Notes under the pieces: generated by a model
The model's database searches: none
What the model was told of the DNA's origin: nothing
The model's input: the letters and a program-made list of their open reading frames with translations, nothing else
Program-made: the position numbers and the translations under genes
Source of the DNA: Rotaria socialis
Taxonomy: Eukaryota
Direction: 5' to 3'
Length of the DNA stretch: 64,000 nucleotides
Assembly: GCA_905331295.1 (NCBI GenBank)
Contig: CAJNYD010000006.1
Coordinates: forward strand, 1-64,000
Shown here: in pieces, positions 851-39,854 of the stretch
Numbering within the stretch: the stretch's first letter is position 1
Layout of the letters: every line of letters starts with the position of its first letter

Positions 851-1112
851 CCCACGCATACACCCACACTCACATCTACACCCCACACCCCACACCCTTG
901 TGACGCGACGTATTATTGGCCATCGAACATCGTTTTTTTTATTTGCTTTTTCGGGGCGAATTTATCGTCGTTGGATATTTCAATATAACTGAAAAAATTA
1001 CCAGTCGTTTTCAGTGGTTGTCAACGAAGTATAAAAATACTATCATTGCCATATTTCTGTCTACTTTCTTTTAATTCATCATTTTTTGAAAGTCTGAGCG
1101 TATCCAAATTTG

Positions 1113-4100: not shown

Positions 4101-4545
4101 TAATCGAGAGATACAACAACAGGAGCTAGTTAAATCAGATGCTGAGCGCCGATTGCATGAATCTGAAAATGATATCCGCAGCAAACAAACTGAGCTTAAC
4201 CGCTGCCAAAAGAATTTAAATGATAAACAACGAACATATGACGGCATTAAAAGTAAATATGAAAAAAAATCACAACGTATTCAACAACAAACCGATCTGA
4301 AAGCTAGTATCGATGAAAACATCAACCGTGCTAATGCAGAGTTTGTAAATGTACGTCGGAATATTGGTGACCGAGCTTTGGATCTCAATAGTAAGAATCG
4401 ACAAATAAAAATAGCTAAAGAGAAAGTATCCAATAATTCGATGAATATAATCAAACAGAATCGTCCACATGTTGATGAAAATTTTGAGCGCGACTATTCG
4501 CCTGTACATATTAATCAACATCAGCACAATACAGCAACAGGTTAA
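1113..4545 (+). CDS. ~1005-aa long coiled-coil protein; exons 1113-2113 and 2529-4545
   Basis: Two E/Q/K-rich heptad ORFs join in frame through a GA|gtaagt donor (2114) and a ttttttag|G acceptor (2528); total 3018 nt. No globular domain recognised. Confidence 0.85.
2195..2490 (+). mobile_element. HINE/Helentron-like non-autonomous element inside the coiled-coil gene intron (contains an N gap)
   Basis: Subterminal inverted repeat GTGAAACACG...CGTGTTTCAC, then hairpin AATCCC-aaa-GGGATT, T-rich flanks. The 5' end recurs at 51219-51280 and the 3' end (reverse) at 54143-54312. Confidence 0.7.
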
Positions 4546-12019: not shown

Positions 12020-12417
12020 TTAGTGTAGATCACACAAGCATACATGATAAAGATAATAACGATGACGATCATCACGATCATAATCATAACGATCATAACG
12101 ACGATAATAATCATAATCATCATCATAACGAAGAAGATAATAATCACGATCACGATAATAATCACGATCATAAAGAAGATAATAATCACGATCATAAAGA
12201 AGACAGGTTGCACCATCACGCTTGATAAAAAGCTTGTAATCACCACCGCTCCAACGCTTCCAATCTTCATTTTTCCAATTGTTGAAATTGCGCACCCAAT
12301 TCCATTGGTCGTGATTGCCAGTAAACTGCCAATCACGACATTTGTGACATTTGGCGCAAGGACGACCTTTACAACGCAATTCGTTGCATGTGCCAGGTGC
12401 AGCAAATTCTCCGGGTA
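12020..12417 (-). CDS. Terminal exon: Cys/Trp-rich domain with an Arg-Asp-Tyr low-complexity insert
   Basis: Acceptor ttttcatttag, then (V)PGEFAAPGTCNELRCKGRPCAKCHKCRDW...RDGATC-(YDRDYY)n-HVCLCDLH*. Confidence 0.7.
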
Positions 12418-15081
12418 CTAAATGAAAATATCAGACAGTTATACAATCAGTCAGAGGTACAAGTTATGAGCTTAGAATAAGTTTTTTAGAAGGATGGCGA
12501 TAAACTAGAAATGATATGAGTCAATAAACGGTACATAGCTTCTATCAAACTTACGAGTCAGAGATGGAAAAACAGTTCATGCTTAAAAGAATCATGCAGA
12601 ACTGAAAAACCATATTCCCCAGTGACAATGATTTGAAGTAAAACAAACTAATTTCATAGAGATCCTGAGTAAGAGTGAAACTATCAAATCCCCACTACTG
12701 CAACAGCGATGACATCATCGTAGTGATCATCCTATGTACGCAATCTTTGTAGCAACTTATCACTGTTCGGCCGCCCGTCAAGACACAAATCCTGGCCACA
12801 TTTAATAGAACTATCTAAAATTCTTTGCAACTAGTAAGATTTACTTATCAGCAAACACGACGAAATTCACAAGTTTCTAACAATGGAGGTGTTCGAACTG
12901 TAAGTTGAATTTACCCGATTTTTTGCATCAATAGAAAGCCCTCACCGCTAAACTAACATCGTTAAAATATTAGCGTCTGTTGGCGTACCCTTATGGAGAT
13001 ATTCGATTTTTCAGTGAATTTTCTCTACAGGACCGGCGTTCCCAGCAATAGGAGTGGACCATTTTTTTTAACGTATGAAAACATTGACATAAATATTAAT
13101 GATTAATGAAAATATAATCCCTAATATTAACGAAAACATTACTATTCATACTAATGATGAACGTTTCCGTTAACCGTTAATACCATTCAAGAACATTGAC
13201 ATTAATATTAATGATTAATGAAAACATTAATTTTAAAATTAATGTTAATGTATTTCATTAATCATTAATATTAATGAATTAAGTTTTTCTCAGAAAACAT
13301 TAAGCATTAATATTAATGGTTAATGAGAAACATTAACATTAATATTAAATTAATGTTAATGGCTCACCCCTACCCAGCGATATCATATTCTCGAATTGGA
13401 ACCTGAAACTTTGTGCGCATGAAGGTTTCAATGAGACTAGATTACAGAAAAAAACATTAGAAGGTTTGGACAAACCCTCTTCGAGATATGAATCTCTCAA
13501 AATACAGACAATTTTCTATAGAACCTGTATGCTTGAGACATCTCTATTTCGAAGAGGGTTTGTCCAAACCTTCTGATTTTTTTTCTATAAGCTAGTCTAT
13601 TTGAGACCTTCATGAATACATAGTTTCAGATTCAAATTCGAAAATATGATATTGCTGGGAAAGCCGGTCCTGTAGAGAAAATTCACTGAAAAATCGAATA
13701 TCTCCGTAAGGGTACGCCAACAGTCGCTAATATTTTAACCATGTTAGTTTGGCGGTGAGGGCTTTCTATTGATGCAAAAATATCTGGTAAATTCAACTTA
13801 CAGTTCGAACACCTCCATTGTAAGTGCAAAAGACAGTACAATTAAAATGTCGTGAAAACTTTCGACACAATGAAGACATTTTGTACATACATAGCACTAG
13901 AGGACTTTCGAGAAATTGGAAAGCCTAAAAATTCATTTGATTGAAAGATTTTAAAGAATCCTTACAAAAAAATCAGAGAAAGAAAAGAGATTCGAATCGC
14001 ATGAGTATTTCTATAGTTGAATAAACATAGAAAATTCTAAGAATGACAGTGATGTTAGCAATCGAAATATTTTTGGCTTTAAGCATACTCGAAGGCTGCT
14101 AAGATTAAATTGGATTGGATTGAAGGGACGTGTGAAATCGAAAACCTCACGAAGTTTGAAGAGTCGATAAATGAAAGGAAAGGAAGAAATATATATGGAA
14201 TCCATGAGTGACAAAACATTCAAACAGTTCCATACAGTGTAAGATTTAAAGGGGAAAACATAAATTTGGCAGCTCTTTGTAATTATGTGTAAAGAATTTT
14301 GATTATGTGGATGAAGATGGAAAGAAGTATACTATCGATGGAAAAACTCTTTGAAATATGGGTATCATTTTTCAGTTTGAAATTGGCTGGCATGTATTGC
14401 TCTTATTAAAAGTCAGAATGCAGCATCTAAATCAGAGAAATGTTTAAAGTAATGAACGTACTGCTACAAAAAAACGATGAATTTGATGAAATACCTCCCA
14501 GGAATATGGAAATTTCAGAATGCCATATGTCTATTCACCATAGAAATCGTTTATGACTGACAGACGTGTGACACGGATGCATGGCGTTGAAGATACAAGG
14601 ACTTAGAAAGCTATTCTTTTCATTCACACCTCTTCCATTCTGCTATTTATTGGGCAAAGATTACAGTATTGATATTAGCTATGAATATGGAAACCAACTG
14701 TATAAATTTAGCCGCTTACACGACTGTAAAAAAAAGAAACGAAGAAGCAAGCAGGATAATTTTCGATCCTGACTTATTTTGCACTAACATTCTAGGAAGT
14801 TGAAGTATAGTTCATTTAAATTTTGATTAAGTAGCAAAGTGATTGTGAATTCTTCGCTACTTTTGGAGAGAAAATATCAAGAACTCAATTAATCTAGTCC
14901 GTAAGGTAAAATAAATTTGAACAGACTTTGTATTTGAAGGAATTACGCCGTATCGGAAACAAAATTCACCTTGCCTTTGAATTTTAGGCTATATGAACTA
15001 TAATTATGAGATTTTAAGTATCTCGTACCAGTAACGAATATAGTTCAGTTCATTCAGATAAAGTGGGGCAATGCGATTTAA

Positions 15082-15120
<39 letters not shown>

Positions 15121-18100
15121 ATGCGCTTTAAGCCCCCCCCCCCCCCCCTAAAAAAGTTCATTTTGGTTAAATATGCTGATCTTCTCATTTATAGCTGGTG
15201 AGATTGACCTAAGTGTGTAATATCGATTGCACGATAGTTTATTGATTTTCTGATAAGATTTCAGAAAACTACATAGGCTTTAGAGAAACCTCATATAGAA
15301 CAAAAACTGACTTGTACATTTTTTCTGGCTTTTCTTTTAGCCTTTTATATTGATCGAGCTTAGTATCATGTAGATACAAGTGTAACAGATGAATAAAAGA
15401 CTTCAGAAATCCAAGAATTGAACGAAACTACTATACATAGATTCATGATTAAACATAAACTTTAATTCATAAAATTACCAATCATGATGACTATAACATG
15501 CCTTGAAGTATTTAAGATACTATGAACATATTATTTCTACATGATGAATATCGATTTAGATGATTTTAATTGATACTTTGATCGAGTAATAGACCCATGG
15601 GTCAACAAAAACAATTCCTTTTGTAAATCGTTAAGCGCATTTATTTGATGCATTCTAATCGTTGATTTATTGGAAATGGTTCCTATAATATTTTTCGATC
15701 AACGTATAGAGTAAAAATCCTTATTTTCAGCGGTCGAACTTATTTTGCGTTTATCTGAAAGTGGGATTTTTGGTTTATATGCTTTCATGTCTTCCAGATT
15801 CCTGTGCCAATTTAAACACTAGTCAGCTGAGTGCAGCGCTATTGCTTAACAGAGTTCGATTTTCCAGTATAATCGTAGTTCCTTTTTAAAAGCTAAAAGA
15901 TCTGAAGAAAACTTACTAGTTTTTCAGAATTTTGCGGAAGAAGTTTTCCAAAACCCAAACTAGTAATAGATTGAAAAAGAGACCCCTGGTAAGTTGTACC
16001 CCACCGTTGGCTACATTTTAAAACTAACTCGAGCTTCCTAACATTTGAAATGGCTGAGAAAACTGAAACGCACGGGTCCTATATTTTTACCTATAATCGT
16101 TAGCTAACTCTTGAAGTCTCAATTATCGAGCTGAAATTTTTACTGCAAGATGTTATACTTGAAATACAGCTTCTCAAGAAATTTCATCGAGATCTAATGC
16201 AAATTAAAACTTTTGTGTGGATATGGGTGTGAGTGTGAACATGCGTAAAATGGGTCAAGCATACACCCGCGCCAACACCAAAATTTTGTTGGATTGTGTT
16301 ATTTCTTTTAGTTTAGTAATGTCTAGAATAGTCATTACCGAAGCATCTGTACTAAAAGACTATTATTCATGTTCCAATCGCTTTTTGGGTCAGTTTTAAT
16401 CAAATCCTGTAATATTCTATCATTTGGTAGCTTACTGAATCCATAGGCGAGAGTTATTGATAGTAATAGAAAAAATAGGCTTCTGTCAGGATGAGGCTGT
16501 CATTAGCAGTAAAATTTTGATAACGGGGTTGATTGATTGTGTGACCTTTCATATGTAGGTATAACGTATTAAAGTTCATTTTCACATTCATACGAAGACG
16601 TACACATCATAATCATGCTGGTCGAAAACAGTTCACGAATACGAAACTTTAGAAAGAATATGCACACGTGTCAGTATATATGAAAAACTAGTAGAAACAG
16701 AATTTAGCTTGATGTTACAGCGTGATCGGTAGTTTTCATGTGTACGATAAAACTACACAACAGTGGGATTATGCTATGGTAACTAAAGACGAGTAGGCGT
16801 TCGTCAACTCATGAAAATATACAAGTAGGTATATATCTTGTAACAATTGATTGTGAAATACAGGCAAACTTACCAGTAACATTAAGAGTAACAGTCATTT
16901 CTTCAGTTGACGTTTTGTTCTTTGCTATCATCATATACACACCTTGATGTTGCAGCTGTACATTAGCCACTACGAATTTGTATCGTGTTGTTTCCACATT
17001 TGTGAACTGCATTGCTTCCCCATCTTTCATTAGTCGAACTTCCGGTATTTCCTTTCCACTCACATCCACAGTGATCTCGAATGTTTCGCCACACTTTAAT
17101 TGAGCTTCATTCGATGTTGGTACAACTTGTTTCAATTTTACTGGTTCCAGTACTGTAACTACACATGAATTCGAATGCACTTCACCAACGTCGTTCTTCA
17201 AGACGATTCGATAGGCTCCTTCATTCTTTTCAATTGTTGCTCGTTTGATCACTAGTTGATATTCATTATTCGCTTCGTTTACTGATAAATTCTCTGATAC
17301 AATAGGTTGATCGTTGAAAAACCATTGAGCCGATGGTCGTGGTGATCCTTTGGCGACCACTTTCAATGTGACATCTTGTCCAGTCACAGTCTCTCGTTGT
17401 TGTGGCAACCGCGCGGTGATTGTTGGTGCAGCAAGAATCTCGAGTTTAACCCTTTCTTCTTCATTGCCATATTCATTCTCGAGACGACAAGTAATTGAAC
17501 CAGCATGCTGTTCGAGATCGACGTTTTCAATAACCAACATGGCTTCATTAGTTACAGGATTGAACTGCATCTGAACACCTTCTTCCGCTTTCAACTGTTT
17601 GCCATTGAGAAGCCAAATGATCTTTGGTGTTGGATATCCATCGATCTGTATCTTTAAACAGGCTTTTTCGTCTTGTTTTACTGTTAGTGCTGTCGGTTTG
17701 ACAACAAATATTGGTGGTTCTACAATAACGTATGTATGAAAGAACAAGAAAGATCAAGATGACGTACTCGAAACAGTGACTTTGCACTTATTGGATACGA
17801 GCGATTCACCAATATTGAAGATCTTGGCTGAATACTCTCCTTGATCTTCTGGTTCTACATGCGAGATTACCAGTGTGTATATATAATTATCATCATGGTC
17901 CTCTGTTGTTTTGTGAACACGATCATTGGGTTTGATTTCATTGTTTCCTTTCATCCACACAATGTCTGGTTTAGGTGTTCCACTCGCGACGATCTTGAGC
18001 GTCATAGTTTCCTCTTTTATAGCTTGCAATGAACCATCGAGATTAACTGTGATCATAGGTTTGATGATGATGGACAATGTGATTTTTGCTTCCGCTTTGC

Positions 18101-21100
18101 CCACAGAATTGGTTGCCATAGCAGTGTAGATACCTTGATCGGCAAGTTCAGCTTGATGAATCGATAACTCTGATGTTCCATCATCAATCTCAGTCACTTG
18201 AAAGCGATCATTTGTTGGAATGGGTTGATCGTTGAGAAACCATGTTACTTGAGGTTTCTCAATACCACTGAACTTCCATGAGATCTGAGTGTCTTCACCG
18301 AGGATACATGATTGATCTTTTTCTGAGTTCTGAGCTTCCACTTTGGGTAGAACTAAAATGAATGCATACACCTTGTCAGTAGGTAGCATATACATGTTTT
18401 GTCAACCTTCAATCTAAGATGCAATATTTAGAATAGCATTTCTATCTCATTAATAATCTTATTATTTCCAGAGTTTTCGCGTCAACTATGATCAATATTT
18501 TTATTTGCTCTAAACATTAAGAATTTCTGGAAGTCCGATAGTTATTAATACTCGAAATATTGGAAACTTTGATTAGAAAATGGAGAAACTGATAGTAATT
18601 GGTTTAACCCTGTTCACAAAAAGGCATGCTCAATGTTCATAAATATCGAACTCCTGACAACTAGTGATGTCGATTGTGTTCATTTTTTAACACAAGCTAC
18701 ACATCTAAAAGTTACCTAGAGTTTGCATGAATAGGCCGAGAAAAGATTGAAATTTTGAATTTTCTGTGAATTCCGAATCCTTTGATGTTATCCTTAATGA
18801 ATTTTGATGACAGATTCAGATAGAACAGAAAAGATGATTGTAGCCGGCATTGCAAATCCCCAAACAATCAACTCGTAAATATGATAACAATGTCATCTTA
18901 AATATCATGACATAACTTTGTTTCGTTGAATTGAACTCTAAACTCAACTTAATAGAACCATAATCGTTTCAAAAAACATNCTTTTGGTACCATGAGTTTT
19001 TTTCTTCCATAGGGAATTTTAAGTTATGCGATAACAAGTATTTTTACTCAATTTTCAGAAGAGCCTCACCTATGAGATACTGCAAAACATATGTTCATTA
19101 GACCGAAAATCGTCTCATACGAAAGAGTGCAAAATTCTGCATAGCCCCATGCAAAAAATCATCCTGAGTCAAGACTCTCATAGTAAACTTTGCCGGACTA
19201 GAGAGTGTCTTTTTTCGAAAATTTCCTATGGTGTATTACTTCATGTCTATATGACTCAGAAATAGAACCGTTCACTATCAGCTTGAACTACGCTAGCTAG
19301 ATCGATGTCATTTTTCAAGCTTTACATTATGGTGTAGTTTTTATATTGAAATTTTATTGGTCAAAAATATCAATAAGACTCATACTAAGCAGAGTAGAAG
19401 AAGCCACCTTGGAAAAAGTATAATGCTGAAATGATCAGTTTTTACCGCTGTATACATGCAAGATATACAAAATAGTTGCTTCGGTAATAATCAGATAGTA
19501 CAGGTGAAAAGCTGTATCGTGGAATACTTGAATCCAGAGCGTCTAGACGATGGATAACTCAAATTCGTGGTAGGATTATGTTCTCAATATGATGACCTTG
19601 TTCGAGCCATATTCGCATGTAGGCATTTGGGGTTCTGTGGAGGTGAAATAGAATCGACTGAATATGAACTTTCCGCGAGTATTCATTCACAAAAATGTTT
19701 AAGACTGCGTTCAGTGCTCTCTAAAAAAAACGTTTCCTAGAAAACCCAAACGAGTTCGGAAACCCGCTCGCAAATCTATAAAGGTTTCCGAGAACTTGAA
19801 GCGTTTTTAAAAATACCTTTTACATTTTCGAGCATACGCAGTGTCGAAAAAGTATACTGGAAAACCGAAGTCAGTTTCCGGGTTTTTTCAATTTGTTACA
19901 GATTTCAACAGTCTTAAAAATCTTCACAATGTTTTGCAAACAAGGCCCTGATCAAAGTTTGAAATATCACAGAAGACGATGTTCTGTGTTCAAATTTTCG
20001 TTGTTGATCTTCACTTACTCCCACTTTTTGACATTTTTAATTCAATAGAACTCCCATATTTTGTTTTTATAAGTTGCTTCATGACGGATCAGTTTTTCGA
20101 AATTTGAAGCTATTGAAACTTTTAAAATAATGTTATCCTATCTTTATATTCTTGAGCTAGTCTCAATTTTGCACATCTTAGGATCAATATTTTATTAACA
20201 TTTTAGAGATGAATAAATATTATTAATGAAAGATTAACTTGCTTCTAACTTTGTTTCGTTGAATTGAACTCTAAACTCAACTCAATAGAACCATAATCGT
20301 TTCAAAAAACATTATATAGAGTTGCTCTTAAAAAATTCTGGCTTCAGGTTATCATTATAGCTGCTGTATTACTACAAAATTACACGGTCAAATCTTAAGA
20401 AATCAGACATAAAAGTTATCCTTGAGCAACCAAGTTTCGCGATCACACAATATACGATGAACATGTAAAGATGGTGAGTTCGATTTTAAACGTAAAAACC
20501 TGATGAACTATTTTATTTTTATTGAGACGCAGCATTGCAGGTCGATTGTTGCCCTCGGTGGATCCTGCAGGAACCTGGGGAAAGCCAGCTTATCCCACAA
20601 AAAAAACACCGGAAATTGTTTGACCATGGAAACAGGAATCCAGCGGGAAACGTTTCTGATTTTCCCGAGTGAGTTCCGACCAAGTTACTGTGTTTTTTGA
20701 CAGCATTCGTCGAAAATCATGTGAAAAACTCGGAAAAATTTCTAGCGATTCTCGTGGCTTTCTGCAGGATAACGTGACTTTCGCTCACGTTTTGTAATCG
20801 TTTCTATAGGATGCTCCGTGCGGTACGACCTATCTGGATTATAGCGATGCGGCGGTTCTCGATACAGAATGAAAAAAATGAGATCTCAGAAACCTTTAAT
20901 CCATTTCCAACATTGGTATCCGAAGGAAATTTTTATTTGGTTCATTGGTTTTCGAGGTCTCGGAAACCGTGTCTCGAGAAGTCTTAAGGGGCTTCGGAGT
21001 TTTTTACTATCAGAAACCTATTTTGAGTTTCCTAGAAAACCTTTTTTTATTTACAGAGTACCCCGATGTTGATTCAACAGACGAAGAATCTTATAATTCA

Positions 21101-24100
21101 AGCACTAGTCAGAGTGACGACGATTAAGCGATACCATATTTCGTTTTTGTTCACCGATTGCGGTTCCTTTTATTTTTCTAAATACACTTCTTACTAACGA
21201 AATGGCAAGAACCTTTTACATTTTCGTTGATTGGCTCAGTTAACAAGATGGTAAAACAGTATTAGTGCCATCGTGCCTATCTAAACATATCTATCTTCTC
21301 TTACTTAAATAACCAGATTATGCGATGAGACTAGCGCATAACTGCAGCTCGCGAAGAAACATCAAAAGCTATGCCACATTAAACCACTGCTATCCGAGCC
21401 AAACTGCCTACATATTCAGCATAAACTTACATTTAGAATGCATGCCTGTCAATGATAATACCATACTATACCTACGCCTCAATTCGAAAAAACAACGATG
21501 AAAAAATCAGAACTATATCATCTTGTAGAGCTTGAAACATTACATCGATATAAGTATAAGAGGGTTCATTCGTAATCATGATTTGTCTATACCTTCTGTT
21601 CCATGTAAAGTCCAACATCTCAAAATTTTAGGGTTTTGCATAGTATGAGTCTTATGGATATTTTTGGTCAATAAAATTTCAATATAAAAATTACACAATC
21701 GTGTAAAGCTTGAAAAATGATATCGATCTAGCTAGCATAGTTCAAGCTGACAGTGAACGGTTCTTTTTCTGAGTCATATAGACATGAAGTAATACACCAT
21801 AGGAAATTTTCGAAAAAAGACACTCTCTAGTCCGACAAAGTTTACTATGAGAGCCTTGACTCAGGATGATTTTTTGCATGGGGCTAGGCAGGATTTTGCA
21901 CACTTTCGTATGAGACGATTTTCGGTCTAATGAACATATGTTTTGCAGTATCTCATAGGTGAGGCTCTTCTGAAAATTGAGTAAAACTACGTGTTATCAG
22001 AAAACTTAAAATTCCCTATGGAATAAAAAACCCCATGCTACCAAAAGATTCGCCGTAAAATGTTTTACAACATCCTATACTTTTTTCTTCGAATTGGGAC
22101 TGGGCCGATTTCCGTTCTTATTTGCCCCTCTCCTTAAGCTTATCTTTCTTTCTGAATGTATCGCAAGATACTGTTATTGAGTCGATTAGTGCTATGCTAT
22201 CGTCCTTACCTCGTATTTTCGTTAATAATATTTTGAAGCATTTTGGTATTATTTTGTTTTGAAGTTCCTGCAAACCTTTTAACCAACCATAGTCAGCAAC
22301 GTTATTTAATGCTAACTCATACAAATTGTCTGTATTTTTAATGTTACTCTCTTCCAATAATTGAAATAATTGTGGACGATAATACTCACGTAAGGCTTGA
22401 AATAATACTAATTCTTTTTTTTCTATTATTGTATTCAATAAATCCTTTGAAATATAATTAGAATATTTTTCTATTGATTTTAGACCGTGATTTGTTATTG
22501 TAAGCCATAGATCATTGAATAGATTTAACTCGGTTAAACATTGGTCATCAATCTCTTTGAATAAGAGTTGTAAGACAATTGACAAAATTGGACAATTTTT
22601 CATATATTTATTTCCATATTCAGCTGTACGATTCAAAATAAATTGATAATTTTGACTATCTTCATTTTGTTTTAGAAATAAAACAAACCATTCATTTGAA
22701 CTATATCGTATTTTCCATTGTTGTTCCAAATAATATTTTAGAGCTTTCATAAAGTCACTGTCCTTTTCATTTATTGCTGCTGTATAGATATCTGGTAAAA
22801 GATCATCTTCATATTTGAACAATGATTGCCGACCATTTTCCATCAAATCATGAACAATTTCGTCTTTGCTGTCATTATATTTTAATTGAAGTACTTGTAT
22901 TATTTCATTTTCAGCTAATTTTAACACATCATCATCTACGACATGGCCAAGGGTTTCTATCGAGAAGAGTAGAGACATTGAAAATTAGGAGATCCTGTCA
23001 TGTAAAGCTTCTAATTTGCACTCAGCGACGGGTCAATATATGCAAAATCAAAAATAATGAAAAGCGAGACTAAATTGCGGATATTCATTTAGCTAACATA
23101 AATGTTTTTAACTCAAAATTCATAGCATGGTGTGGGTGTAAACGAAGAGAAAACTATTTGTCACACTCAAAGTTAAGCGTGACTATTATTTTGTCCTTAC
23201 CATGGATCTTGTCCTTTCTCTATGTTTTATATTCACTTTGATGTCCTTAACTGTCATTATCTTTCGTTCACTCGGATGGTTGAGTATTTAAATGTGTGCT
23301 TTTTGTGTAATCTGTACGATCATGATACGAAGAAATGAAATACAGCAAAGTTCCATCAATGCAAGCACTTCTTCTATCAGAAATCATCACATTCATACAG
23401 ATTCTCGCGATGTTGTTTTTGAATGCTTTTTCAATGAAGTAAAATCAAGGGGGTAAGTGGTGGCACCTAGCACCGAAAAGTGCTAGACAGGCGCTGAGAT
23501 GCCAAGGTGCCAACACTTACCGCCTTGAGTAAAATGCACCACACTTTGTCACATCATTGATAGAATATTTGGACGATTATGACTTTTCTCATTTCAAAAA
23601 TCTATTTGTTTTATTGTTCCAGTAGTTTGTCATTAAATGAAGTCAAGGAATTTATCTGTTTCTTCATTGACAAATACGACCTGAATAAAATACTAGAGAA
23701 TGAAAGTAGTATGACTGATAAAGCAGACTAAGGTACTTCATGCTTTTTTTCCTTTGGTCGATGGCACACGTTCTATGGTTCTTTCTCGTACATATTCTCA
23801 TTCAGGAAATTTTAACACATCCATAGCAACCGAATATTACAAGACAATCTACCTAGCTCTTCGATTTTCTTGAATACTTAGTCCAGATCTATCTCACTCA
23901 ATCAAAGAAGATAACAAAAAGGAAAATAAATTACTTTGCTTTCTATTACATTCTTCGATGAGTACAATTAATTGAGAGCAAGGCGGTCGGTCATCAGGAT
24001 CATTCGCCCAACATTTTGTGATCACAGCAGAAAATTGTAGTGGTGTATCGTCGGGTATCTCTAAACGTTCACCACGACGCACACAATCAGAAATGATATC

Positions 24101-27100
24101 ATTTGGGTAGCCATCATAAGGTATTTCATTTGCAGCTAGCTCCCAATAAACGATTCCTAAGCTGTAAACATCACTTTTATCAGTATACTTTTTTAAACGC
24201 AGTATTTCAGGAGCAGTCCATTGCAATGTACAGGCTATCATATGATTATGTTTCGTCTGTCGTGTTGTTTCACTTCGTGTTTGAGCCAAACCAAAATCGC
24301 ATACCTTCACAATATAGTCTTGATAGGATCTCTCCAACAAAAAATTGAGCGACTTGATATCACGATGCAAGATGGGTCGTTGTAGTTTATGCAGATGGTT
24401 GATGGCGTTGGCTGCTTGCAAAGCGATGGATAATCGTTCAGACCAATCTAATACTAGTTTATCCTTGTGAAGAAGCTTGTACAGTGATCCGAGTGACATG
24501 TATTCCATCACCAATGCATACTTTCCAATTTCAGTACATGCGCCATAGAAAGTTACGATATGATGATAGCTAATACTATGCACCAATGAAAGTTCTTTGA
24601 AGAATTCCTTTTCGGCTTGTTTGTCCAAGTGTGTAAGATGCAACGTTTTGACAGCAACTATCCGGTTGTGACTTAACCATCGAGCACGATGAACTACCCC
24701 AAAGCCTCCACGACCAATTTCCTCTTCCCGCCCGAGGTCCTGAGAAGGTATGAATTCGAAATCTAGTAGCGGATCTAAATTGCAAAAACACTTTTCATGA
24801 CTTATTCATGCCAATAGCTGCACTCCTAGCGAATAAAAAATACTTTTTTTTATCATATAATGTCATTTGAGACTGGCAACACAATCAATCGGTCACTCTT
24901 TTAAAAGGAAGATTCAAATTTACAAAAATAATGAAAAACAGTTTCTATAATCGAAACTAGATTGCCGGTACATTACTAGATACGCTGTAAACTCTTAGAT
25001 AATTAACTGCGTAGTGTGATAGATTCCACCTTGCTAGCACAATGAATACTAAAATTGGACTAACTTATTAATTTTAAGCAAGAATTATAATTGAATAGTT
25101 GTGTTACACTTGCAATTCTGTTTAAAGATGATTAGAAGTTTTTAATATGATTTCCTCAAGACAACAAAAGTGAACTAGGTGAATAATGAAAACTTTCTCT
25201 ACATTTTTCGAGTATTTGAAAAAAATATCTCATTACTGCTTCATCATGATGATTTTGAAGTATTAAACGTTCTTCATCGAATCGTCAAAAAGAGATCAAA
25301 CTTCGTGACAAGTAGCGATCTTCGTTTCGCAGTTCATTGGAGTTCTGATTGTTAAGAAATGAGTCTATATTCTGAAGGCTTGTAGCGACTACATCTGTTC
25401 GTAGGCCATTTCAGTTCAAATTAAAATGCTAAACTATTAGGGCTCCCTAAAAACAAATCCATTTCAGAAGATCTCAGAACTGGTTGGAAGAAAATGGCAG
25501 AAATTTTCACCGATTTCAGATCTAAATGGTTTCTATTTATAATAAAAAAAAGCAAGTTTATTTTATTTTTGAAACGCTACAAGTATCACAATGTGAAAAA
25601 AACGGAATTCCATAACGTTTGATTATGCCTAAAACATAATATTTCCTGTATCATGCATATTTTGAATCTTTTTTTGGCAAAATTGTGGGAAATATTAAAC
25701 TGGGTGTGAATATGAATGCCACTCTCTCCTTCGTATATAACCAATCACATTCACACCCTTTAATTCTGACGATTCTTGTAAAAGTTTGCTTCATTTTCGA
25801 ATCAATTAGGACCGCGAAAAAAATCTTGCAACTCGTAGTTACCTAATGCCGAAGTCGCTATGACTGAATAGTTAAATTCTTTGGCATATACTATCAGATA
25901 CTGTGTTCGAAGCTCGATGCCGTCAGGTATATAATGATCTTGAATAAGTTACCAGCGGCTAGTTATCTCGGGTGACCCATACTATAGCTTACTGGCTGCA
26001 TTGTGGCAAAGACCAGTCCTTGTCGCTAGTATGTGGTTAGTCAGTATGTGCGGAGAGCACATCGAGCAGACGAAGTCTAAACCAGGCTAGTATTTTGTCC
26101 ATAGCTACAAGTAATAATAGTTGTAGGAAACGAATCCGGCCTTTGAAATTGTCTCCGGACAGCACCCTATACTACAAGGTAGTCAAACGGCAAGAGTATT
26201 ATTTTTCTTTTTCTTCTATCTTATATCGATAATATTGCAGAGCCTGATTTTAGGCAAAAAACAATCATTTTTAAAAAGTATCTCAATGTATAGATCTCAT
26301 GCGTTGTAGGTGCATCATCTTTTCGAATAATCTCTAAAATGTATGAACATATTAAACAAATCTAACGGATACAGTACTCTATGTGCATTTTTTTCGACTT
26401 ATAGGCAACAAGTATTTATTAAGAGTAAGTGTAACGAGTGATCGTTTTTCTCCAATCAGCAGCTATCGTAGCGAACTACAGAAGAGAAAAAGAGTGAATG
26501 AAGTACCAAATGAGCAATCATGCTGAAGTAAGTTTAATGCATGTATATCAATGATGAAAGAATTTAAATTGATGGGAAGATTGAATAAGTGGAGATGATA
26601 GGATAAAATGGCAAAGATAATAAAATTCAGAAAGATCTTTTCAGCTTAATGCTTATTATGGTCAAGGTCAGTATTGTTTTTGTGCTGTTTAAAAAATCGA
26701 ACTGATCTTCTTTGAATCTATATTACTCATTATGCAAAGATGTAGGTTAGTGAATCTGGGCATCGATATGAGCGAGTGCAATTCGTGCATTCTGGGAATG
26801 AATGTGTGAGCCTTTCTTTGATCGACACGTAGTTCCACCCACACTCACATCTCGCACCCATCAATTAGATTTCACTTTGGATTTTCTCTGCTATTTTAAG
26901 GACACAGCGTGATTTTTTCGGCCCGATCTTGGGATTAATGTAAGTCTTCTTCCATGCGAACCCAGCAATAGCGTGTTATGTTCTGAAAATAATCAATAAA
27001 CCTGCTTCTTCGAACGTGATTGAACAATAGAAAAACCCTCAATCTGTCAGATTCCAACATGAAGTTGAGTATGGTCTGGCGTATGTGTGGTTGCTAACAT

Positions 27101-27917
27101 TGGTAAGCTATCAGCCCTAATTATTATGCAGTGAGAAATCCAAACCGAACATCTCAGAGTTTTAGTATTGATACATGCCTATCTATGGAAGAATAGAATG
27201 AAAAGCCTCACTTGTAAAAGGTGGTGCAATGAGCTGATATGGCGGTTTTGTTTCTAGTAATTCTATTATATGCAAACCATTAGCTTCAGTCCGTTTTCCC
27301 AAGATCCGTAGATAAGTGCCAGGCATCAGAAGTATTTCTTTCTCTTCTTTGAAATAAGAATATGATTCGATGCAGCGGCCACTGATACATTCTATCTTAA
27401 AAAGAGTGCATTCTTCCGAGGTTTTTAGAAACTGGTCCGCCACATTCCTGCTTTCTGTGCATGAGCTGAATCCCCACCATATTTTATATTCTTTGTATTC
27501 ATTATTCATATTACCGCGAACAGCGCGCCAAAGTGTTTTCTTGATGGGTGGTAACTTGTACAGAGCGGTAAGAATAAGTTTGAGGTAGGAGAACCATGGT
27601 TTCAGTTCGTTTCGCCTCTCATCACGTAGCGCTCGATTGAGAAGCTTGTACAGGCTATCATGCGTGTCAGGCCATTGTATAGTGTAAATATGAATAGCGG
27701 CTGATTCATCAGTGGTGATACCATCTGGTGGCTCGTTGGAGTTTTGCAAAGCTATATCTACCATTCGATCAGTATTATGCAACAAATTTTTTATTGGCTC
27801 AATAGCTTCTTTGAGTGATACTAAATCTTTCTTCTCGTAGCCTTCGATTGGTATTAGCAGTTTACTGGGTTCTTCTCCAGCATCAATAAAACGATGGATT
27901 CTAAACCCATCACCCAT
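12020..27917 (-). CDS. Predicted ~1373-aa multidomain protein: ART, TKL kinase, unknown helical domain, 5x Ig I-set, Cys-rich/RDY tail. Exons 27917-27212, 24774-23935, 22956-22210, 18352-17768, 17719-16874, 12417-12020
   Basis: Every junction has a canonical GT donor or pyrimidine-AG acceptor in phase 1; the joined length is 4122 nt with no internal stop. Joining them into one transcript is an inference. Confidence 0.65.
12881..13820. mobile_element. Foldback (almost fully palindromic) MITE
   Basis: CAATGGAGGTGTTCGAACTGTAAG... and ...CTTACAGTTCGAACACCTCCATTG; the arms pair over ~300 bp once the nested insert is removed; right flank is TA. Confidence 0.85.
13049..13372. mobile_element. hAT-like MITE nested in the foldback element
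   Basis: TAGG...CCTA termini, 8-bp TSD CCCAGCAA/CCCAGCGA, AT-rich ATTAA-repeat interior; absent from the opposite arm of the host element. Confidence 0.85.
16874..18352 (-). CDS. Two internal exons encoding five titin-like Ig I-set domains
   Basis: Motifs GxPxPxxxW and DxGxYxxxAxN repeated; 48-nt intron at 17720-17767; all boundaries phase 1. Confidence 0.9.
18981..22047. mobile_element. Non-autonomous element with ~407-bp terminal inverted repeats (18981-19387 / 21641-22047) and nested repeat debris
   Basis: The two arms are near-identical reverse complements; no transposase ORF inside; the left end abuts an N, so the TSD cannot be assessed. Confidence 0.8.
22210..22956 (-). CDS. Internal exon, 249-codon helical domain of unknown function
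   Basis: Long open frame bounded by a ttctcgatag acceptor and a G|gtaagg donor, both phase 1; internal sequence repeat visible. Confidence 0.75.
23935..24774 (-). CDS. Internal exon encoding a complete tyrosine-kinase-like Ser/Thr kinase domain
   Basis: GRGGFG, VAVK, HRDIKSLN, DFG, WTAPE and DVYSLG all intact; phase-1 boundaries. Confidence 0.92.
27212..27917 (-). CDS. First coding exon: ARTC-type (R-S-E) mono-ADP-ribosyltransferase domain
   Basis: Motifs LWR, WWGFSSCT and EKEILL (ExE); no signal peptide; A|gtgagg phase-1 donor; acceptor 16 nt before the ATG. Confidence 0.9.
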
Positions 27918-29414
27918 ATTTGTAATCGAATAACTAGAATGAAAAACAAATCAAAGGTAACCACTGCGTATTTTTCTCTCTATCAACACTGCTTCCTTCA
28001 ACTCAATATTTATAAGAACATAATAGGGTAAACGATTGAGACGCTGGGCAAAGCGCTGACGAAAAAATCAAAGAAAAAGGATAAACCGAAACAAGAACTC
28101 TTTTATTAATATTCATCGTTAGTGCCTCTGTAGACCGGGTTGATAATGCCAAGAAAAAATATATCAGAAATGGATAGATCGAGTAAGATAACTCAAAAAA
28201 TAAGAGTCACACAGTCAAAAATAAAAGTATACGCACAGCGACATTTAACTTTAAAGAAGAATAGAAAGCATGACGATTGAGAGAGAGAGAGAGAGAGAGA
28301 GAGATTAAGGTAACGATAGATATAAGAATGGAAAAAAGCAGTAGTCACTCACTCATAGCTAGTCAATTTTCTCGTTTCGTCATTATTATACACGCTATTA
28401 ATAATACAGAAAATTCAGATTCATTTTACCTATGATGCAATAAATCAACAGAAACAAAGTGGTAAGATTATATTGTTTACGAATCGCCCTGCATACTATG
28501 ACGTAAAATGGGTCACTAATAATCATTTTAGTTTACTACAATTCGTAAACGGCATTAGCGTATAACTTTTTCTTTTCTTTCGAACTGTTGTATTAAACGA
28601 AAACTGAATAAAAGAATTTTCTGAATTGTGCTTGAGAACGAGACAAGTGACTACATGGTTGAAACTTAGTAACTACTATGTTCCTTATGGCTGAAAACTG
28701 TTTGATAATAATATTATATATCAGAAACATTAGATTCACCAGTAAAACACATTGAAACAGAATGCTTAACGTGTTCTATCATACTAAATGGATTATTTTC
28801 AGTGGAAGTCAGACCATCTATGCTTATCTCTGAAACTGCCATGAACCGCGGATTTGGTGGGCTTTTTGAAACGCATAAATGGTCTGACTACCGTTATATC
28901 CAAAAACCACTTCAACTCAACAGGAGCAGGTGTGTCGACCATAACCTGTACCTTGAAGGTTTCAGGTGTGGCGCCCTTCGAGAGGCAGTGTAGTGAACTC
29001 TCCCGAGCTCCATTTCCACAAAATGCCTCTGTAGTGTTGTTACATTATGTATGTGACATAAGTGAAAATTTGCCAGAATTTGTGGGTGTGGGTGTGGATG
29101 CATAAGTAGTTCTGATATTCAGTTACATCCCATATATGCCAAACTTGAAACTTGAATTCAATTGAAGATTTCAATTTTCAATTGAATTCAAGTTTGGAGT
29201 TTGACACTACTGCTACATCCGCACTCACGTCCTAGTATTAGATCGTCAAATCGCTCACTGTTCGCAGAAACGAACACAGTACGAGCAACCATATACTCAA
29301 ATATCTATTCAAATAAATCTGCTAGATATTGAGTCAACACATACAGTAGGAGTACATACTGCTGTTTACAATCTCATGGCCTAATTATTTTTATTTAGAA
29401 TATATTTCTAACAT

Positions 29415-29945
29415 GTTGCTACAGTTTTAATAGAAGCGGCGCAACATTTTTTACTTGGGAATTTGACTGTAGCCTACCTGTGAATAGTGTGCCGAAGACA
29501 AAAGAAAAACTGTTTGTGCTTGTTCTGCGCACGCTTTAGTTATCTGATAAGTGAAATGAATTGTTTTGTTGGCAGCTCCTTGTAGAAGATTCTTTTTTCC
29601 ATCTTTTTTCGATAGATTCACAGAGAGAAAAAGGAAGGAATATACTTTGAAATTTTTCGTAAGTACTCTTTCAGTAACAATAAAGAACAGAAAATTTGTG
29701 AGGCATCAACATCAAGGGGGGAACGGCGGACTTTTGGACTTGAAGTTACTTTCAGCTATTTGAAGTAGCTTACTTTGAATTACTTTTCAACTCCAAATTT
29801 TCCTGAAGCTACTTGAGGTTATTTTAAGCTACTTCTTCCTACTTTGGGCTACTCGAGTGATACTTTGAGCTACTTCAAGCCCATCGTGTCCCCCTTGGTC
29901 AACATACAGAAATAAATAGAAGAATTTCTGCTGTTCAGAAATAGT
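29415..29945. repeat. Diverged copy of 55543-55880 (non-coding; conserved minus-strand CAG|GTA donor)
   Basis: Co-linear similarity, e.g. ACCTG(T/C)GAATAGTGTGCCGAAGACAAAA and CGTAAGTACTC(T/C)TTCAGTAACAATAAA. Confidence 0.85.
29713..29897. mobile_element. hAT-like MITE with TTGAAGT/ACTTC repeats
   Basis: CAAGGGGG...CCCCCTTG termini, 8-bp TSD ATCAACAT/GTCAACAT; the empty site is visible in the paralogous copy near 55835. Confidence 0.88.
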
Positions 29946-32887: not shown

Positions 32888-33813
32888 ACAAGTTATAGCA
32901 TCTTCATACACTAGAATGTTGTTTTCAACAGTGTTTGAATATCAATAAAAAAATTTCTTTCATCTGCTCATTGGTTTATTTGTTAGCTGGAACATTCAAC
33001 ATTTTCAACTATATTGACGTGTTTTATTCAGTCACAAAACAGATGTATATCCCAAGGTTGAAAAGGTCAATAGTAACGCTCGACACGCCCTAGAAGAGAT
33101 ATATTAATACATAATGTAATTAAAAATATTTTCATGACTTTTAGCACGTTAAAGATTATAAAAACCAGTTGAGATTGTTTTCACCCCAGACAGATTTTCA
33201 TTGGTACAAAAATCATCTTTGTAATTCCTATATAGTTATTCAGAGTATGTTTAATAGTTTAGCTGAAGATCTATCAACACTTTTTAACTGATCATGATTA
33301 GAAGCCATTAAAACATGACCATGCAATGCAAGATTTTATGATTTCCAATTGATTTTCATAATCTAAAAATCTCAAAGTTTAGACCTTTATCCTTCATCGA
33401 GTATGCAAAATCTCATTTTGTTTTACTTTTGAGGGGTACCCGTTCTACGAACAACTGATTCTTGCGGACAAGAGAATTATAAAAATAGTGCATATGTTTC
33501 CGTCAGTGTCATGCCACTTTCTAAAACCCATACTATCAACGTTTTATATTGCATAAAGAATATGTTTCTTTTCCTTTGAAAAACAAAACATGAAAAGAAA
33601 GAATTCTTTAGATAGATGGAGTACTATACAGATGCAAAGGGAATTTGAATTTTTTATTCATCAAACTCGAATGAGTCATTTGAAAGATTCACAAATCAAA
33701 AGATTTCTGGATGGAACATAGGGAAAAAACCAAGTGAATGACATCATCAAGAATTTTTATATATGTATGTTCATGAGAAAGTTTAGAATTTTTAATACAA
33801 GATATTTTTCCTT

Positions 33814-36489
33814 ATGGCAACATCAGATAGAACACCTTATCAAATACTTGGAGTATCCGAAGATATTGACTATGTTAAACTACGAGGAGTCTACTGTGAA
33901 AAAATTCATGATCATCTAAAAAAGAAAATTTCTGCCATCAACTTTCGTCGTATTTGCCGTGCATATGAAACATTATCTGACTTTGAAAAACGGGACCTGT
34001 ACGATGCCGAGAAAGAATGGATTTTTGAACTACCAATCGACAAATATACATCACAACAATTGGCTGCTGAACCAGATCTAATACGTGATCTAAAACAGCG
34101 ACTGCGAAATGCTAATTTAACAAAATTAAACGCTCAAGATCCTGTGACAGGTCATACAACGCTTTACACTGCAGCTCGTGCTGGCAATTTAGAAGCCGTG
34201 AAATTTTTAACTGAACAAGGAGCAGAACCTGATCTGTCACAACGAACAAAAAGTACTGCATTGCATGTGGCTTCTTTTTACGGGCATGCTGATGTTGTTC
34301 GTTGTCTGTTGGAAAGCGGAGCAAACTTTGAAATAAAGAATGGAGGTAATAGTACAGCTGAAGACGAATCATATAATGCTAATGTAAAAAAAATGTTTAC
34401 TGAACTCAAACAGATCGCTTACGTTCGAGCGGCTGCCAATGAGCTCGATTGGTTTTATCAGAATGGGCTGACACAACATCAGGATACAGAATATTTTTCA
34501 CAACGTCAAACACTTTTACATTGTGCTAGTAAGAAAGGCTATCATGATTTGGTGCATTGGCTCGTAGAGCAACGTCAGGCTAATATCGATCTGGTTGATT
34601 TTAATGGGAATACGGCTTTACATCTTGCCGCATACGGTGGCCATCAAAAGATTATCCAATATCTTCTTAATTGCGGCTGTGATTCAACTGTTAAAAATCG
34701 ATGGGGCACAACAGCTGAAGAAGAAGGAGCCATGAAACATGGTAATAGCATTACTGATATTTTTAAAGAAATTCGTGAACGTGACATGTTTGAAATGGCC
34801 CGCACTGGTGTAGATTGGTGGTTTTATTATTATTTTGATGACAGTTTAAAAGATACCAATGATACTACTGGTATAAGTTTACTTTATTATGCATGTCGTT
34901 ATGGACATTTTTCTGTGGCTAAATGGTTATTAGAACATGGAGCTAATGTAAATATTCAGATGAAAACTAAACCCAAGAGTACTCCATTACATGGAGCAAA
35001 ATATCGTGGTCATTATTTAATTGTGGAGCTCCTACTTGAATATGGCGCAGATGTCAATATTAAAAATGATTTTGGAACAACGATTTTCGACGAAGAAATT
35101 TCAAACGACGTAGACAATATTTCATCAAATAAAATTCAAGAAATCTTATTACAATATCAAAGTAATTTAAAAAGTGACAAGTTGATTGATGTACACGTGT
35201 ATGAAAATGATGGTCAAGATGAGGAGCCAATCGTAAAAGTCAAACTAGGACTTAGATCAAAATATTCAGATCTATTAGCAGCTCTGTCGACCGTATCAGA
35301 TGATCAATATCCTTATTTTTCAATTGCTCGGCGTATGCTTTCGTTCAAGGAAAAAGAGGAAACAACTATTATATCAGCTGTAGGTGGTGCACGATATGGT
35401 TTTTCGAAATTTATTGATACACCAATTCGTCTTATTGGTCACAAAACGTTACCAGATGGACATACGAAGAATCAACCAATTCATCAGGAGCCTAAATTAT
35501 CTCTTCGAGAGTTTAACAAAAAACTCGACTCTCAAGGTAAAACTAGTACATTTTCATTAAAATCTCCTCTGAATGCCAAGAAAACTGTTCAAATTGGTAA
35601 CTTGACGTTTACTTTCGCTGAGGGTTCTATAAAAAGTGATATTGAATTCAAAGTAATAGCACTTGCTACACCCGATCCTGAAACGTTTGACATACCTGGA
35701 TGTATTTGTCTCTTTAAAACTGAAATTGATCAACCTAATTCTGAACTTAGTGAATTACCTCTTGTATCAATAGCCAATGGATTGGAAGCTCGTTTCTATA
35801 CTTTGGCGCAACCTTCAACATATTGGTTTAGTTCGCACACTCGTCAAACTCGTTTACCTATGCTTCAAGGCATTCATGCGTTCGTTCGTCACGTCGATAT
35901 CATTCCAAATGCACTTACCCTACCAGGAGATATGTTTATTGCAGCTGCACTCGATCAACCATTGATATCACGAACGAATCCTGTACCGTGCACATGTTTG
36001 GTTCTTCGGAAACAGGATTCTAATATGTTTCCTAACATAGCTTATCATGGAACGAATATCAAAGTTATCCAATTCATCGTTCACGACGGACTTGCCACAC
36101 CAGGCACGTTAACAGCTAATGGAAAACGTATCAATCCCCCATCAAACCATATTGCACGTGATGTAACCGCATTCCATGTCAAAGATTTTGCTGCTGCTAT
36201 TTTTCTAAGTCCAAGTGTGCATTATAGCTCGGATCCAGTTTATGCAATACCATTTTCTCACGGTGATCTACAAATGATACCTATACTAGAATGCAGTGTA
36301 AAGCGTAACAGCTATGATACTTATCCTTCTACTGTGCGACACTATATTGAACACCCAGGTGACAACATGGATGCCATTGAATGGCGAATAAAATATCCAG
36401 CTGATATCGAAATCAATGCGATATTATTTATTACCACGAATGAATCGATTAGTGCTTCGAAACTGGCACGAATTACTAAAACTAGTTGA
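33814..36489 (+). CDS. Intronless 891-aa protein: J-like domain, ankyrin repeats, beta-rich middle region, C-terminal PARP-like (H-Y-E, NEURL4-type) ADP-ribosyltransferase domain
   Basis: TPYQILGV...AYETLSD...RDLYD (J domain, HPD absent); TALHxAxxxG ankyrin motifs; AYHGT, IFLSPSVHYS and IEWR at the C terminus. Confidence 0.85.
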   Translation: MATSDRTPYQILGVSEDIDYVKLRGVYCEKIHDHLKKKISAINFRRICRAYETLSDFEKRDLYDAEKEWIFELPIDKYTSQQLAAEPDLIRDLKQRLRNANLTKLNAQDPVTGHTTLYTAARAGNLEAVKFLTEQGAEPDLSQRTKSTALHVASFYGHADVVRCLLESGANFEIKNGGNSTAEDESYNANVKKMFTELKQIAYVRAAANELDWFYQNGLTQHQDTEYFSQRQTLLHCASKKGYHDLVHWLVEQRQANIDLVDFNGNTALHLAAYGGHQKIIQYLLNCGCDSTVKNRWGTTAEEEGAMKHGNSITDIFKEIRERDMFEMARTGVDWWFYYYFDDSLKDTNDTTGISLLYYACRYGHFSVAKWLLEHGANVNIQMKTKPKSTPLHGAKYRGHYLIVELLLEYGADVNIKNDFGTTIFDEEISNDVDNISSNKIQEILLQYQSNLKSDKLIDVHVYENDGQDEEPIVKVKLGLRSKYSDLLAALSTVSDDQYPYFSIARRMLSFKEKEETTIISAVGGARYGFSKFIDTPIRLIGHKTLPDGHTKNQPIHQEPKLSLREFNKKLDSQGKTSTFSLKSPLNAKKTVQIGNLTFTFAEGSIKSDIEFKVIALATPDPETFDIPGCICLFKTEIDQPNSELSELPLVSIANGLEARFYTLAQPSTYWFSSHTRQTRLPMLQGIHAFVRHVDIIPNALTLPGDMFIAAALDQPLISRTNPVPCTCLVLRKQDSNMFPNIAYHGTNIKVIQFIVHDGLATPGTLTANGKRINPPSNHIARDVTAFHVKDFAAAIFLSPSVHYSSDPVYAIPFSHGDLQMIPILECSVKRNSYDTYPSTVRHYIEHPGDNMDAIEWRIKYPADIEINAILFITTNESISASKLARITKTS

Positions 36490-39323: not shown

Positions 39324-39854
39324 TGTGTCAATTTAGATAATCAATGTAGAAGCTTCAATAGAAATCTGAAATTGAACATATTCTAATTCATTTTACAGGA
39401 AAACTGTTCAAAAGTATTTCAAAAAAGTATTAGCCATTGTAAACAATAGTCTTTTCACATTATATACCTGCTATTGGAAATGGAAACACTGACCAACACT
39501 ACCTATAATTTTATAATGACACGTCCATGTTTTATTACTCTTCGAAATGTCATCACTTCTCGAAAATTAGTATCGAACCTTATTTAAAATATGTTTAAGA
39601 AAGATAGACAATCGATCAGGTTCATTATTCTTAAACTAATGTTCAATCAATAGATGTCGCCATACAAAAACAAAAATTGATTTTTACTCACTTTCCTATT
39701 TTTCTCAATTAAAAAAAAATATTTTCTATGAAAACTTGAAAATTATGACCTATCAATAGAGGTCACACATAAAGGTATAACAATGGAATCAATATGGCAG
39801 TAGACTATAACAAATGTTTTCTATTTCTTTTCTTTCAATTCAGAACGATAGAAA

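What the first reader, a model, noticed from the sequence alone, without database searches (positions are those of the whole stretch)
12020..27917. Hidden 16-kb one-domain-per-exon gene: ART + kinase + unknown domain + Ig array + Cys/RDY tail
Seen: six ORFs that look like unrelated genes all carry canonical splice sites in phase 1 at the domain edges (27212|24774, 23935|22956, 22210|18352, 17768|17719, 16874|12417) and join into 4122 nt without a stop. Catalytic motifs of both enzymes are intact. Known: symmetric phase-1 exons are the substrate of exon shuffling, and R-S-E ARTs are toxin-like enzymes. Inference: an intracellular polymorphic effector or sensor assembled from cassettes, where any internal module can be skipped or swapped in frame. 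I do not recognise this architecture from characterised proteins.
Basis: partly seen in the sequence, partly recalled or inferred. Interest (0 to 1): 0.88.

Follow-up and report, generated by a model that had tools for sequence, protein, structure and literature searches.

The report
Mix-and-match rotifer ADP-ribosyltransferase gene
A bdelloid rotifer carries six in-frame exons that likely splice into one intracellular protein joining a toxin-like ADP-ribosylating enzyme, a kinase, an unnamed helical domain, antibody-like folds and a cysteine-rich tail; predicted genes of related rotifers hold the same blocks in other combinations, which points to a large, probably defensive, gene repertoire built by exon shuffling.

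Summary
Observation confirmed: six open exons, five GT-AG phase-1 introns, 4,122 nt; 9 of 10 sites are the best frame-blind splice site nearby. The window is Rotaria socialis. The blocks are mobile across bdelloids. A sister-species gene model keeps exons 3-4-5 and the start of exon 6 (81-93% identical, same junctions), duplicates exon 4, and carries a different ART clade and no kinase in front. The exon-3 domain also sits with VLIG/IRG-type GTPases, caspase-like, PARP, PARG and NYN domains, and ends at a phase-1 donor in all 8 other loci examined. The exon-6 tail also ends caspase-like and other ART proteins. R-S-ExE and kinase motifs are intact; no signal peptide or membrane span. Not shown: a single full-length transcript (public models split the locus), exon skipping, enzyme activity or an immune role; in Adineta this ART class is enriched among genes down-regulated by a fungal pathogen. 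Verdict: real exon-shuffled gene of an undescribed bdelloid repertoire; a new variant of a known mechanism.

The parts
27212..27917 (-). Exon 1: R-S-ExE (arginine-type, ARTC-like) ADP-ribosyltransferase, 235 aa, phase-1 donor; reads on to a stop 9 codons later if unspliced
23935..24774 (-). Exon 2: intronless TKL-type (CTR1/MLK-like) protein kinase, motifs intact, phase 1/1
22210..22956 (-). Exon 3: unnamed all-helical domain of about 240 aa, mobile among bdelloid proteins, phase 1/1
18981..22047 (.). Element with 411-nt terminal inverted arms (94%) filling most of intron 3; likely a non-autonomous DNA transposon
17768..18352 (-). Exon 4: two I-set Ig domains, phase 1/1; followed by a 48-nt intron
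16874..17719 (-). Exon 5: three I-set Ig domains, best solved match titin, phase 1/1
12849..13827 (.). Inverted-repeat element in intron 5; contigs of two DNA runs join across it, so a form without it exists (other allele or paralog)
12020..12417 (-). Exon 6: terminal Cys/His/Trp module (predicted metal-binding) with a variable Arg-Asp-Tyr insert, phase-1 acceptor, stop

Best explanation
The six exons likely form one gene of Rotaria socialis for a 1,373-residue cytoplasmic protein, assembled in evolution by shuffling phase-1 exon blocks that bdelloid rotifers reuse in many combinations, and it probably serves cell-internal defence or stress signalling. Shown: open frames, matching splice phase, intact motifs, reuse of the blocks in relatives' gene models and loci. 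Inferred history: an exon 3-4-5-6 block older than the split from R. magnacalcarata received a new front end, an ART of another clade plus a kinase; inverted-repeat elements lengthened introns 3 and 5, which may be why gene finders split the locus. Inferred working: the ART would transfer ADP-ribose from NAD+ to arginines of target proteins; the kinase would signal or set the ART's state; the helical exon-3 domain would act as adaptor or assembly module, as it stands in front of immune-type GTPases and other effector enzymes; the titin-like Ig run and the variable Cys tail would act as spacer and target- or trigger-binding parts. My odds: shuffled origin 0.85, one full-length transcript 0.65, defence role 0.5.
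For: Splice sites and phase. R. magnacalcarata models P0050/P0054: exon 3 81%, exon 4 89%, exon 5 93%, a second exon-4 copy 87-89%, P0050 then entering the exon-6 module; ART only 36% and no kinase. In a 48-row tree the window's ART lies in supported sets of 16 (97/88) and 20 rows (97/87) with LRR-, NHL- and ARH-bearing ARTs, while the R. magnacalcarata ART lies outside, with P0079 (100/100). Exon 3 is followed directly by an exon-4-type Ig in 19 of 31 long relatives, and by exon 4 then exon 5 in 9 of 31. Exon 3 ends at a phase-1 donor in 8 of 8 loci examined (8 of the 9 fetched; about 6 distinct); in L004 it splices in phase 1 towards an IIGP GTPase. Of 40 long exon-3 proteins, 9 carry a VLIG/URGCP GTPase, 2 NYN+RRM, 2 PARG, 2 other GTPases, 22 no other Pfam family. 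The exon-6 module ends 2 caspase-like and 2 ART-type proteins, 4 hits of 7 candidates. A second cassette gene in the window (caspase-like exon, phase-1 donor; 105-nt phase 1/1 linker exon) ends with the 9 letters that one contig of the guessed RNA run X10 carries in front of an exon-6 paralog at the claimed acceptor: a weak hint that this acceptor is used. ART R, S, E, E kept in 47, 46, 46, 46 of 48 rows; kinase motifs present; no hydrophobic span.
Against: Public R. socialis models do not give the full gene: four use an inner donor that cuts the ART at residue 134 and stop after exon 3, four give exon 1 as a stand-alone 244-aa gene, and none fetched joins exon 3 to exon 4 in this species. Four introns are 1.0-4.5 kb, against 49-196 nt in the control parse. 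Most architecture evidence rests on predicted gene models, which can be chimeric (P0008/P0009 look fused to an ordinary AGC kinase gene; my reading). In L007/L008 the best frame-blind acceptor of the next ORF is phase 2, and the IIGP domain of L004 is itself split by an intron, so the rule is not absolute. In Adineta the arginine-ART class is enriched among genes down-regulated by a fungal pathogen (19 of 431 and 8 of 366 at 24 h; PMC11258130 supplement rows), not among up-regulated ones in the rows returned.
Confidence: 0.55

Rival explanations
1. Two or three separate units: a stand-alone ART gene (or ART-kinase-helical gene) and an orphaned Ig-tail piece, left side by side after a shuffling event and cut apart by transposon insertions in introns 3 and 5.
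For: Public models split the locus this way; inverted-repeat elements fill introns 3 and 5; contig depth over exons 1 and 3 exceeds that over exons 4-5 in two DNA runs, a lead only.
Against: Exons 2, 4, 5 and 6 begin at strong phase-1 acceptors rather than at conserved starts; exon 3 to 4 to 5 to 6 is joined in the sister species' model and exon 3 to 4 in 19 of 31 relatives; all ten splice sites and frames are intact; no AATAAA/ATTAAA within 300 nt of the read-through stops of exons 1, 3, 4, 5, though none after exon 6 either, so this test is weak.
Confidence: 0.25
2. One gene, but a nearly neutral, young by-product of segmental duplication and repair in a genome where same-phase exons splice together by default; little expression, no selected function for this combination.
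For: No other ART-kinase fusion among 41 long ART relatives (word-limited search); six isolate differences in exon 1 are 3 silent and 3 changing, too few to show selection; hundreds of ART genes per genome.
Against: Catalytic residues of both enzymes are kept; the fetched R. socialis models of exons 1-3 from several contigs have open frames; the 3' block is 81-93% conserved across species.
Confidence: 0.12
3. One gene with a housekeeping or muscle role: a titin/obscurin-like Ig-kinase scaffold with an ART, not a defence protein.
For: Best solved match of exon 5 is titin (E=3.6e-32); no signal peptide; ART class is down- not up-regulated on infection in Adineta.
Against: The kinase is CTR1/MLK-like, not of the titin/MLCK kind (recalled classification); rapid turnover of the front end between sister species and reuse of exon 3 with VLIG, IIGP, caspase-like, NYN and PARP domains fit conflict genes better.
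Confidence: 0.08

Closest known systems
Class 1-1 (phase-1 symmetric) exon-shuffled modular proteins of animals (Patthy; recalled)
   Same: Domain blocks bounded by phase-1 introns, duplicated and recombined in frame.
   Different: Classical cases are mostly extracellular modules (recalled); here the blocks are cytoplasmic enzymes and unnamed domains of 130-280 aa, and turnover is seen between sister species.
Ectocarpus ROCO-LRR and NB-ARC-TPR candidate immune receptors (PMC3341825; abstract and passages read)
   Same: Candidate intracellular defence genes diversified by shuffling frame-neutral exons; function inferred, not shown.
   Different: There one repeat per small exon within a fixed architecture; here unlike whole domains are exchanged between gene families.
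R-S-E mono-ADP-ribosyltransferases: Vis, HopU1, XopAI and vertebrate ecto-ART2 (PF01129)
   Same: R, S and ExE motifs align; best profile match Vis E=9e-8.
   Different: No signal peptide or anchor, unlike vertebrate ecto-ARTs (recalled); N-terminal module of a long host protein; substrate unknown.
Bacterial polymorphic toxin systems and Crinkler-type eukaryotic effectors (AACRNL, PMC12957317, passages read; others recalled)
   Same: Toxin-like catalytic domain exchanged on a shared scaffold.
   Different: No secretion signal, no immunity gene, no Crinkler header found; exchange is at introns.
Bdelloid lineage-specific expansions of LRR, TPR, NHL and caspase-like genes (PMC3846280, PMC11258130; passages read)
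   Same: Same partner domains; defence role proposed by those authors for the repeat families.
   Different: The passages read do not describe the ART family, the phase-1 cassette layout or the exon-3 and exon-6 domains.

Membership tests
ARTC-type (R-S-E) mono-ADP-ribosyltransferase | Arg, Ser and ExE motifs in an ART fold family | tested here: met
   PF01129 48.7 bits over cut-off 22.3; R131, S152, E192, E194 kept in 46-47 of 48 rows; aligns to Vis
ARTC-type (R-S-E) mono-ADP-ribosyltransferase | NAD+-dependent transfer to arginine | not testable with these tools
   needs an enzyme assay
Vertebrate ecto-ARTs (ART1-5) | Signal peptide and membrane anchor or secretion | tested here: not met
   highest 19-residue hydropathy 0.79 in exon 1 and 1.27 in any exon
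TKL protein kinase | Gly loop, VAVK, alpha-C Glu, HRD, DFG, APE | tested here: met
Class 1-1 exon-shuffled modular gene | Phase-1 introns at module edges | tested here: met
   other loci
Class 1-1 exon-shuffled modular gene | Same modules in other combinations, with discordant histories | tested here: met
   (mostly predicted models; no formal one-clade test run)
Class 1-1 exon-shuffled modular gene | One spliced transcript over all exons | tested here: inconclusive
   only a 9-letter hint at a paralog's exon-6 acceptor
Polymorphic toxin system | Export signal and adjacent immunity gene | tested here: not met
   no hydrophobic signal; no such neighbour among the ORFs of the window
NLR / ROCO immune receptor | STAND NTPase or ROC-COR domain | tested here: not met
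   none in the six exons
Known adaptor fold (death fold, ankyrin, HEAT) for exon 3 | Structural match of the predicted model | tested here: inconclusive
Titin/obscurin-like muscle protein | Long Ig/FN3 array with MLCK-type kinase (recalled) | tested here: not met
   five Ig only, no FN3, kinase closest to CTR1/MLT

The most novel reading that the evidence does not exclude
Bdelloid rotifers run a genome-wide kit of phase-1 exon cassettes (arginine ARTs, caspase-like proteases, kinases, immune GTPases, nucleases, pore formers, plus unnamed adaptor and sensor modules) that is still being copied and recombined within species, giving an animal with little or no sex a recombination-independent source of new intracellular defence proteins; this locus is a recent product caught with its front end swapped.
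Probability: 0.35. Interest if true: 0.85.

Novelty: new variant of a known kind. Interest (0 to 1): 0.66.

Why it matters
How bdelloids keep up with parasites without regular sex is a long-standing question. A standard-phase cassette repertoire is a concrete, countable mechanism: modules, neighbours and intron phases can be tabulated from existing assemblies, and junctions tested by RT-PCR. It would also mean automated annotation misreports these genes, and it supplies two unnamed protein modules (exon 3, at least 118 clusters at 50% identity; exon 6) and several hundred unstudied intracellular arginine ARTs per genome.

Tried and rejected
No whole genome is held, so no genome-wide module table. 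No RNA holder listed for exons 1-3; the one guessed RNA run gave no contig across exons 1-5 or any of the five introns: no evidence either way. Contig depths suggest more near-identical copies of exon 1 than of its neighbours (exon-1 contig against the ankyrin-gene contig: 13.3/10.7, 64/51, 88/25, 173/42 in X1, X4, X5, X7), but the tool states depth is no copy number, so this is a lead only. Exon-3 model is confident and all-helical (pLDDT 87), but Foldseek found no match at E<=0.001 and VIA-align best Z was 5.1; atlas hits were weak and ankyrin-leaning: fold unassigned, not shown to be new. Exon-6 model was poor (pLDDT 43) and was not searched; atlas gave no usable hit. No relatives of exons 1, 3 or 6 in viral contigs. 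phmmer of exon 1 alone found no solved structure. The inner donor used by public models scores below the claimed donor and would remove the S and ExE motifs: rejected as the main form. Paper searches returned no description of this gene family or layout; the library lacks most subscription journals, and 4 of 16 supplements of PMC11258130 were not searched, one more was too large.

Full report
Observation. The exons are 706, 840, 747, 585, 846 and 398 nt (4,122 nt); all introns are phase 1 and no exon holds a stop before the last codon. A frame-blind scorer with hand-set generic weights ranks 9 of the 10 sites first within 60 nt either side. A rough parse of ordinary genes from the window and fetched loci (5 of 7 parsed, unvalidated) gave 5 phase-1, 4 phase-0 and 8 phase-2 introns of 49-196 nt, so five of five in phase 1 is unlikely by chance (about 0.002, my arithmetic). 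Pfam gives ART, protein kinase, two plus three I-set domains, and nothing at cut-off for exons 3 and 6.

Organism and public models. Exon 3 is 100% identical to a protein named as Rotaria socialis (P0001). Public models for this species split the locus: four cut the ART at residue 134 and end after exon 3, four give exon 1 as a 244-aa gene, others start in exon 2 or 3. Such models come from BRAKER, trained on RNA-seq for this species (PMC7943196, passages); whether RNA supported this locus is not known. The inner donor scores lower than the claimed one and would delete two of the three catalytic motifs. Introns 3 and 5 contain inverted-repeat elements; contigs of two DNA runs join across the intron-5 element.

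The blocks are shuffled. R. magnacalcarata models P0050 and P0054 keep exon 3 (81%), exon 4 (89%) and exon 5 (93%) in order with the same junctions, add a second exon-4 copy, and P0050 then enters the exon-6 module; their front end is an ART only 36% identical plus another domain, with no kinase. A 48-row tree of ART domains (rows with matches over 150 residues; midpoint root; no one-clade test) places the window's ART in supported sets of 16 and 20 rows with LRR-, NHL- and ARH-bearing ARTs and the R. magnacalcarata ART outside them. So the two halves of this gene have different histories (inference). Of 41 long ART relatives, 18 carry LRR, 7 NHL, 3 ADP-ribosylhydrolase, and single ones PfkB, MORN, LTD or AIG1 domains; only the window's own model has a kinase. 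Similarity among the closest ends at about residue 235, where the donor lies. Of 31 long exon-3 relatives, 29 are named bdelloid proteins; 19 continue into an exon-4-type Ig and 9 into exon 4 and 5; others carry ART+WWE, caspase-like, PARP, VLIG GTPase, septin-like GTPase or ZZ+CAP domains. The exhaustive search found 118 unnamed clusters; among 40 long ones given to Pfam, 9 have VLIG/URGCP GTPases, 2 NYN+RRM, 2 PARG, 2 other GTPases, 3 single other hits and 22 none. The exon-6 module ends two caspase-like and two ART-type proteins (4 hits of 7 candidates) and keeps a Cys/His frame around a variable insert.

Phase in other loci. Nine metagenome loci hold exon 3. In the 8 examined (about 6 distinct) the domain's frame ends at a consensus donor in phase 1, though weaker GT sites in other phases exist in some. 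The best frame-blind acceptor of the next ORF is phase 1 in L001, L002 and L004/L005, phase 2 in L007/L008, and uninformative in L009. Those next ORFs are a linker, a ubiquitin-like domain (weak), an IIGP GTPase and a MACPF domain. In L004 the GTPase is itself split by a phase-1 intron. Inside the window a second cassette gene has a caspase-like exon with a phase-1 donor and a 105-nt phase 1/1 linker exon; the linker's last bases equal the 9 loose letters that one contig of the guessed RNA run X10 carries at the exon-6 acceptor of a paralog, and caspase-linker-tail is the layout of P0076/P0078. This is one short contig end in a run whose RNA status is a guess: a weak hint.

What the protein would do. 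R131, S152, E192 and E194 are kept in 46-47 of 48 ART rows, kinase motifs are present and no exon has a hydrophobic span. A profile of the ART matches Vis (E=9e-8) and, more weakly, HopU1 and ART2; the ExE motif points to arginine as target (established knowledge of ARTC enzymes, recalled). The kinase is CTR1/MLT-like, the Ig run titin-like, exon 3 a confident all-helical domain. I infer a cytoplasmic protein in which effector enzymes ride on an adaptor and binding scaffold, used in cell-internal defence or stress signalling. The support is guilt by association with VLIG and IIGP GTPases, caspase-like, NYN, PARP and MACPF domains and the quick turnover. Against it, supplement rows of PMC11258130 (file 14, which I infer from file order to be the table for horizontally acquired candidates under infection) list 431 arginine-ART genes in A. 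vaga and 366 in A. ricciae, enriched among down-regulated genes (19 and 8 at 24 h); the main text has no mention of ADP-ribosylation.

Comparison and novelty. Phase-1 exon shuffling is a classical mechanism (recalled). Shuffled candidate immune genes are described in Ectocarpus (PMC3341825, abstract and passages), bdelloid LRR/TPR/NHL expansions in PMC3846280 (passages), toxin-derived eukaryotic ARTs in PMC3417536 and PMC12957317 (passages); PMC12220480 mentions ADP-ribosylation only as a GO term (passages). Searches showed no paper on this family or layout. It works like a polymorphic effector system but is not a member of one (no export signal, no immunity gene). I rate it a new variant of a known kind: interest 0.66; the bolder reading, an active genome-wide cassette kit, has probability 0.35 and would deserve 0.85.

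Noticed in passing
window 53759-53006 and 51701-51597 (-): Second cassette gene: caspase-like (Peptidase_C14) exon with phase-1 donor and a 105-nt phase 1/1 linker exon; its tail exon was not found and may lie in or past the N-gap 51288-51387.
   Followed up: partly
window 33796-36486 (+): Intronless 897-aa ORF: DnaJ-like start, about ten ankyrin repeats, and a C-terminal region with H-G-T and F-L-S-P motifs recalling PARP/NEURL4-type ARTs (no Pfam hit; resemblance recalled).
   Followed up: partly
window 26617-28268: Exon-1 block has 1.2 to 4 times the contig depth of the neighbouring ankyrin gene, differing between DNA runs; possible copy-number polymorphism, next to very high-depth repeats at 28540-29870.
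   Followed up: partly
window 10350-9579 (-): Two overlapping ORFs with repeated Cys/His motifs (zinc-finger-like) downstream of exon 6; no Pfam hit for the first; likely a frameshifted piece.
   Followed up: no
window 1098-4542 (+): Long coiled-coil ORFs (339 and 687 aa) split at a 10-N gap.
   Followed up: no
window 39852-47000 (+) and 48410-50137 (+): Ordinary short-intron genes, BPTF/NURF301-like and CDP-diacylglycerol synthase-like by motif (recalled); used as phase controls.
   Followed up: partly
L004 9881-12581; L007/L008 10061-12824; L009: Exon-3 domain in front of an IIGP GTPase with a tandem repeat; in L007-L009 the domain has an internal deletion, in L007/L008 also a stop, with a MACPF ORF downstream: birth and decay of cassettes.
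   Followed up: partly
P0096-P0098: ART fused to an ADP-ribosylhydrolase in three bdelloid models: writer and eraser in one protein.
   Followed up: no
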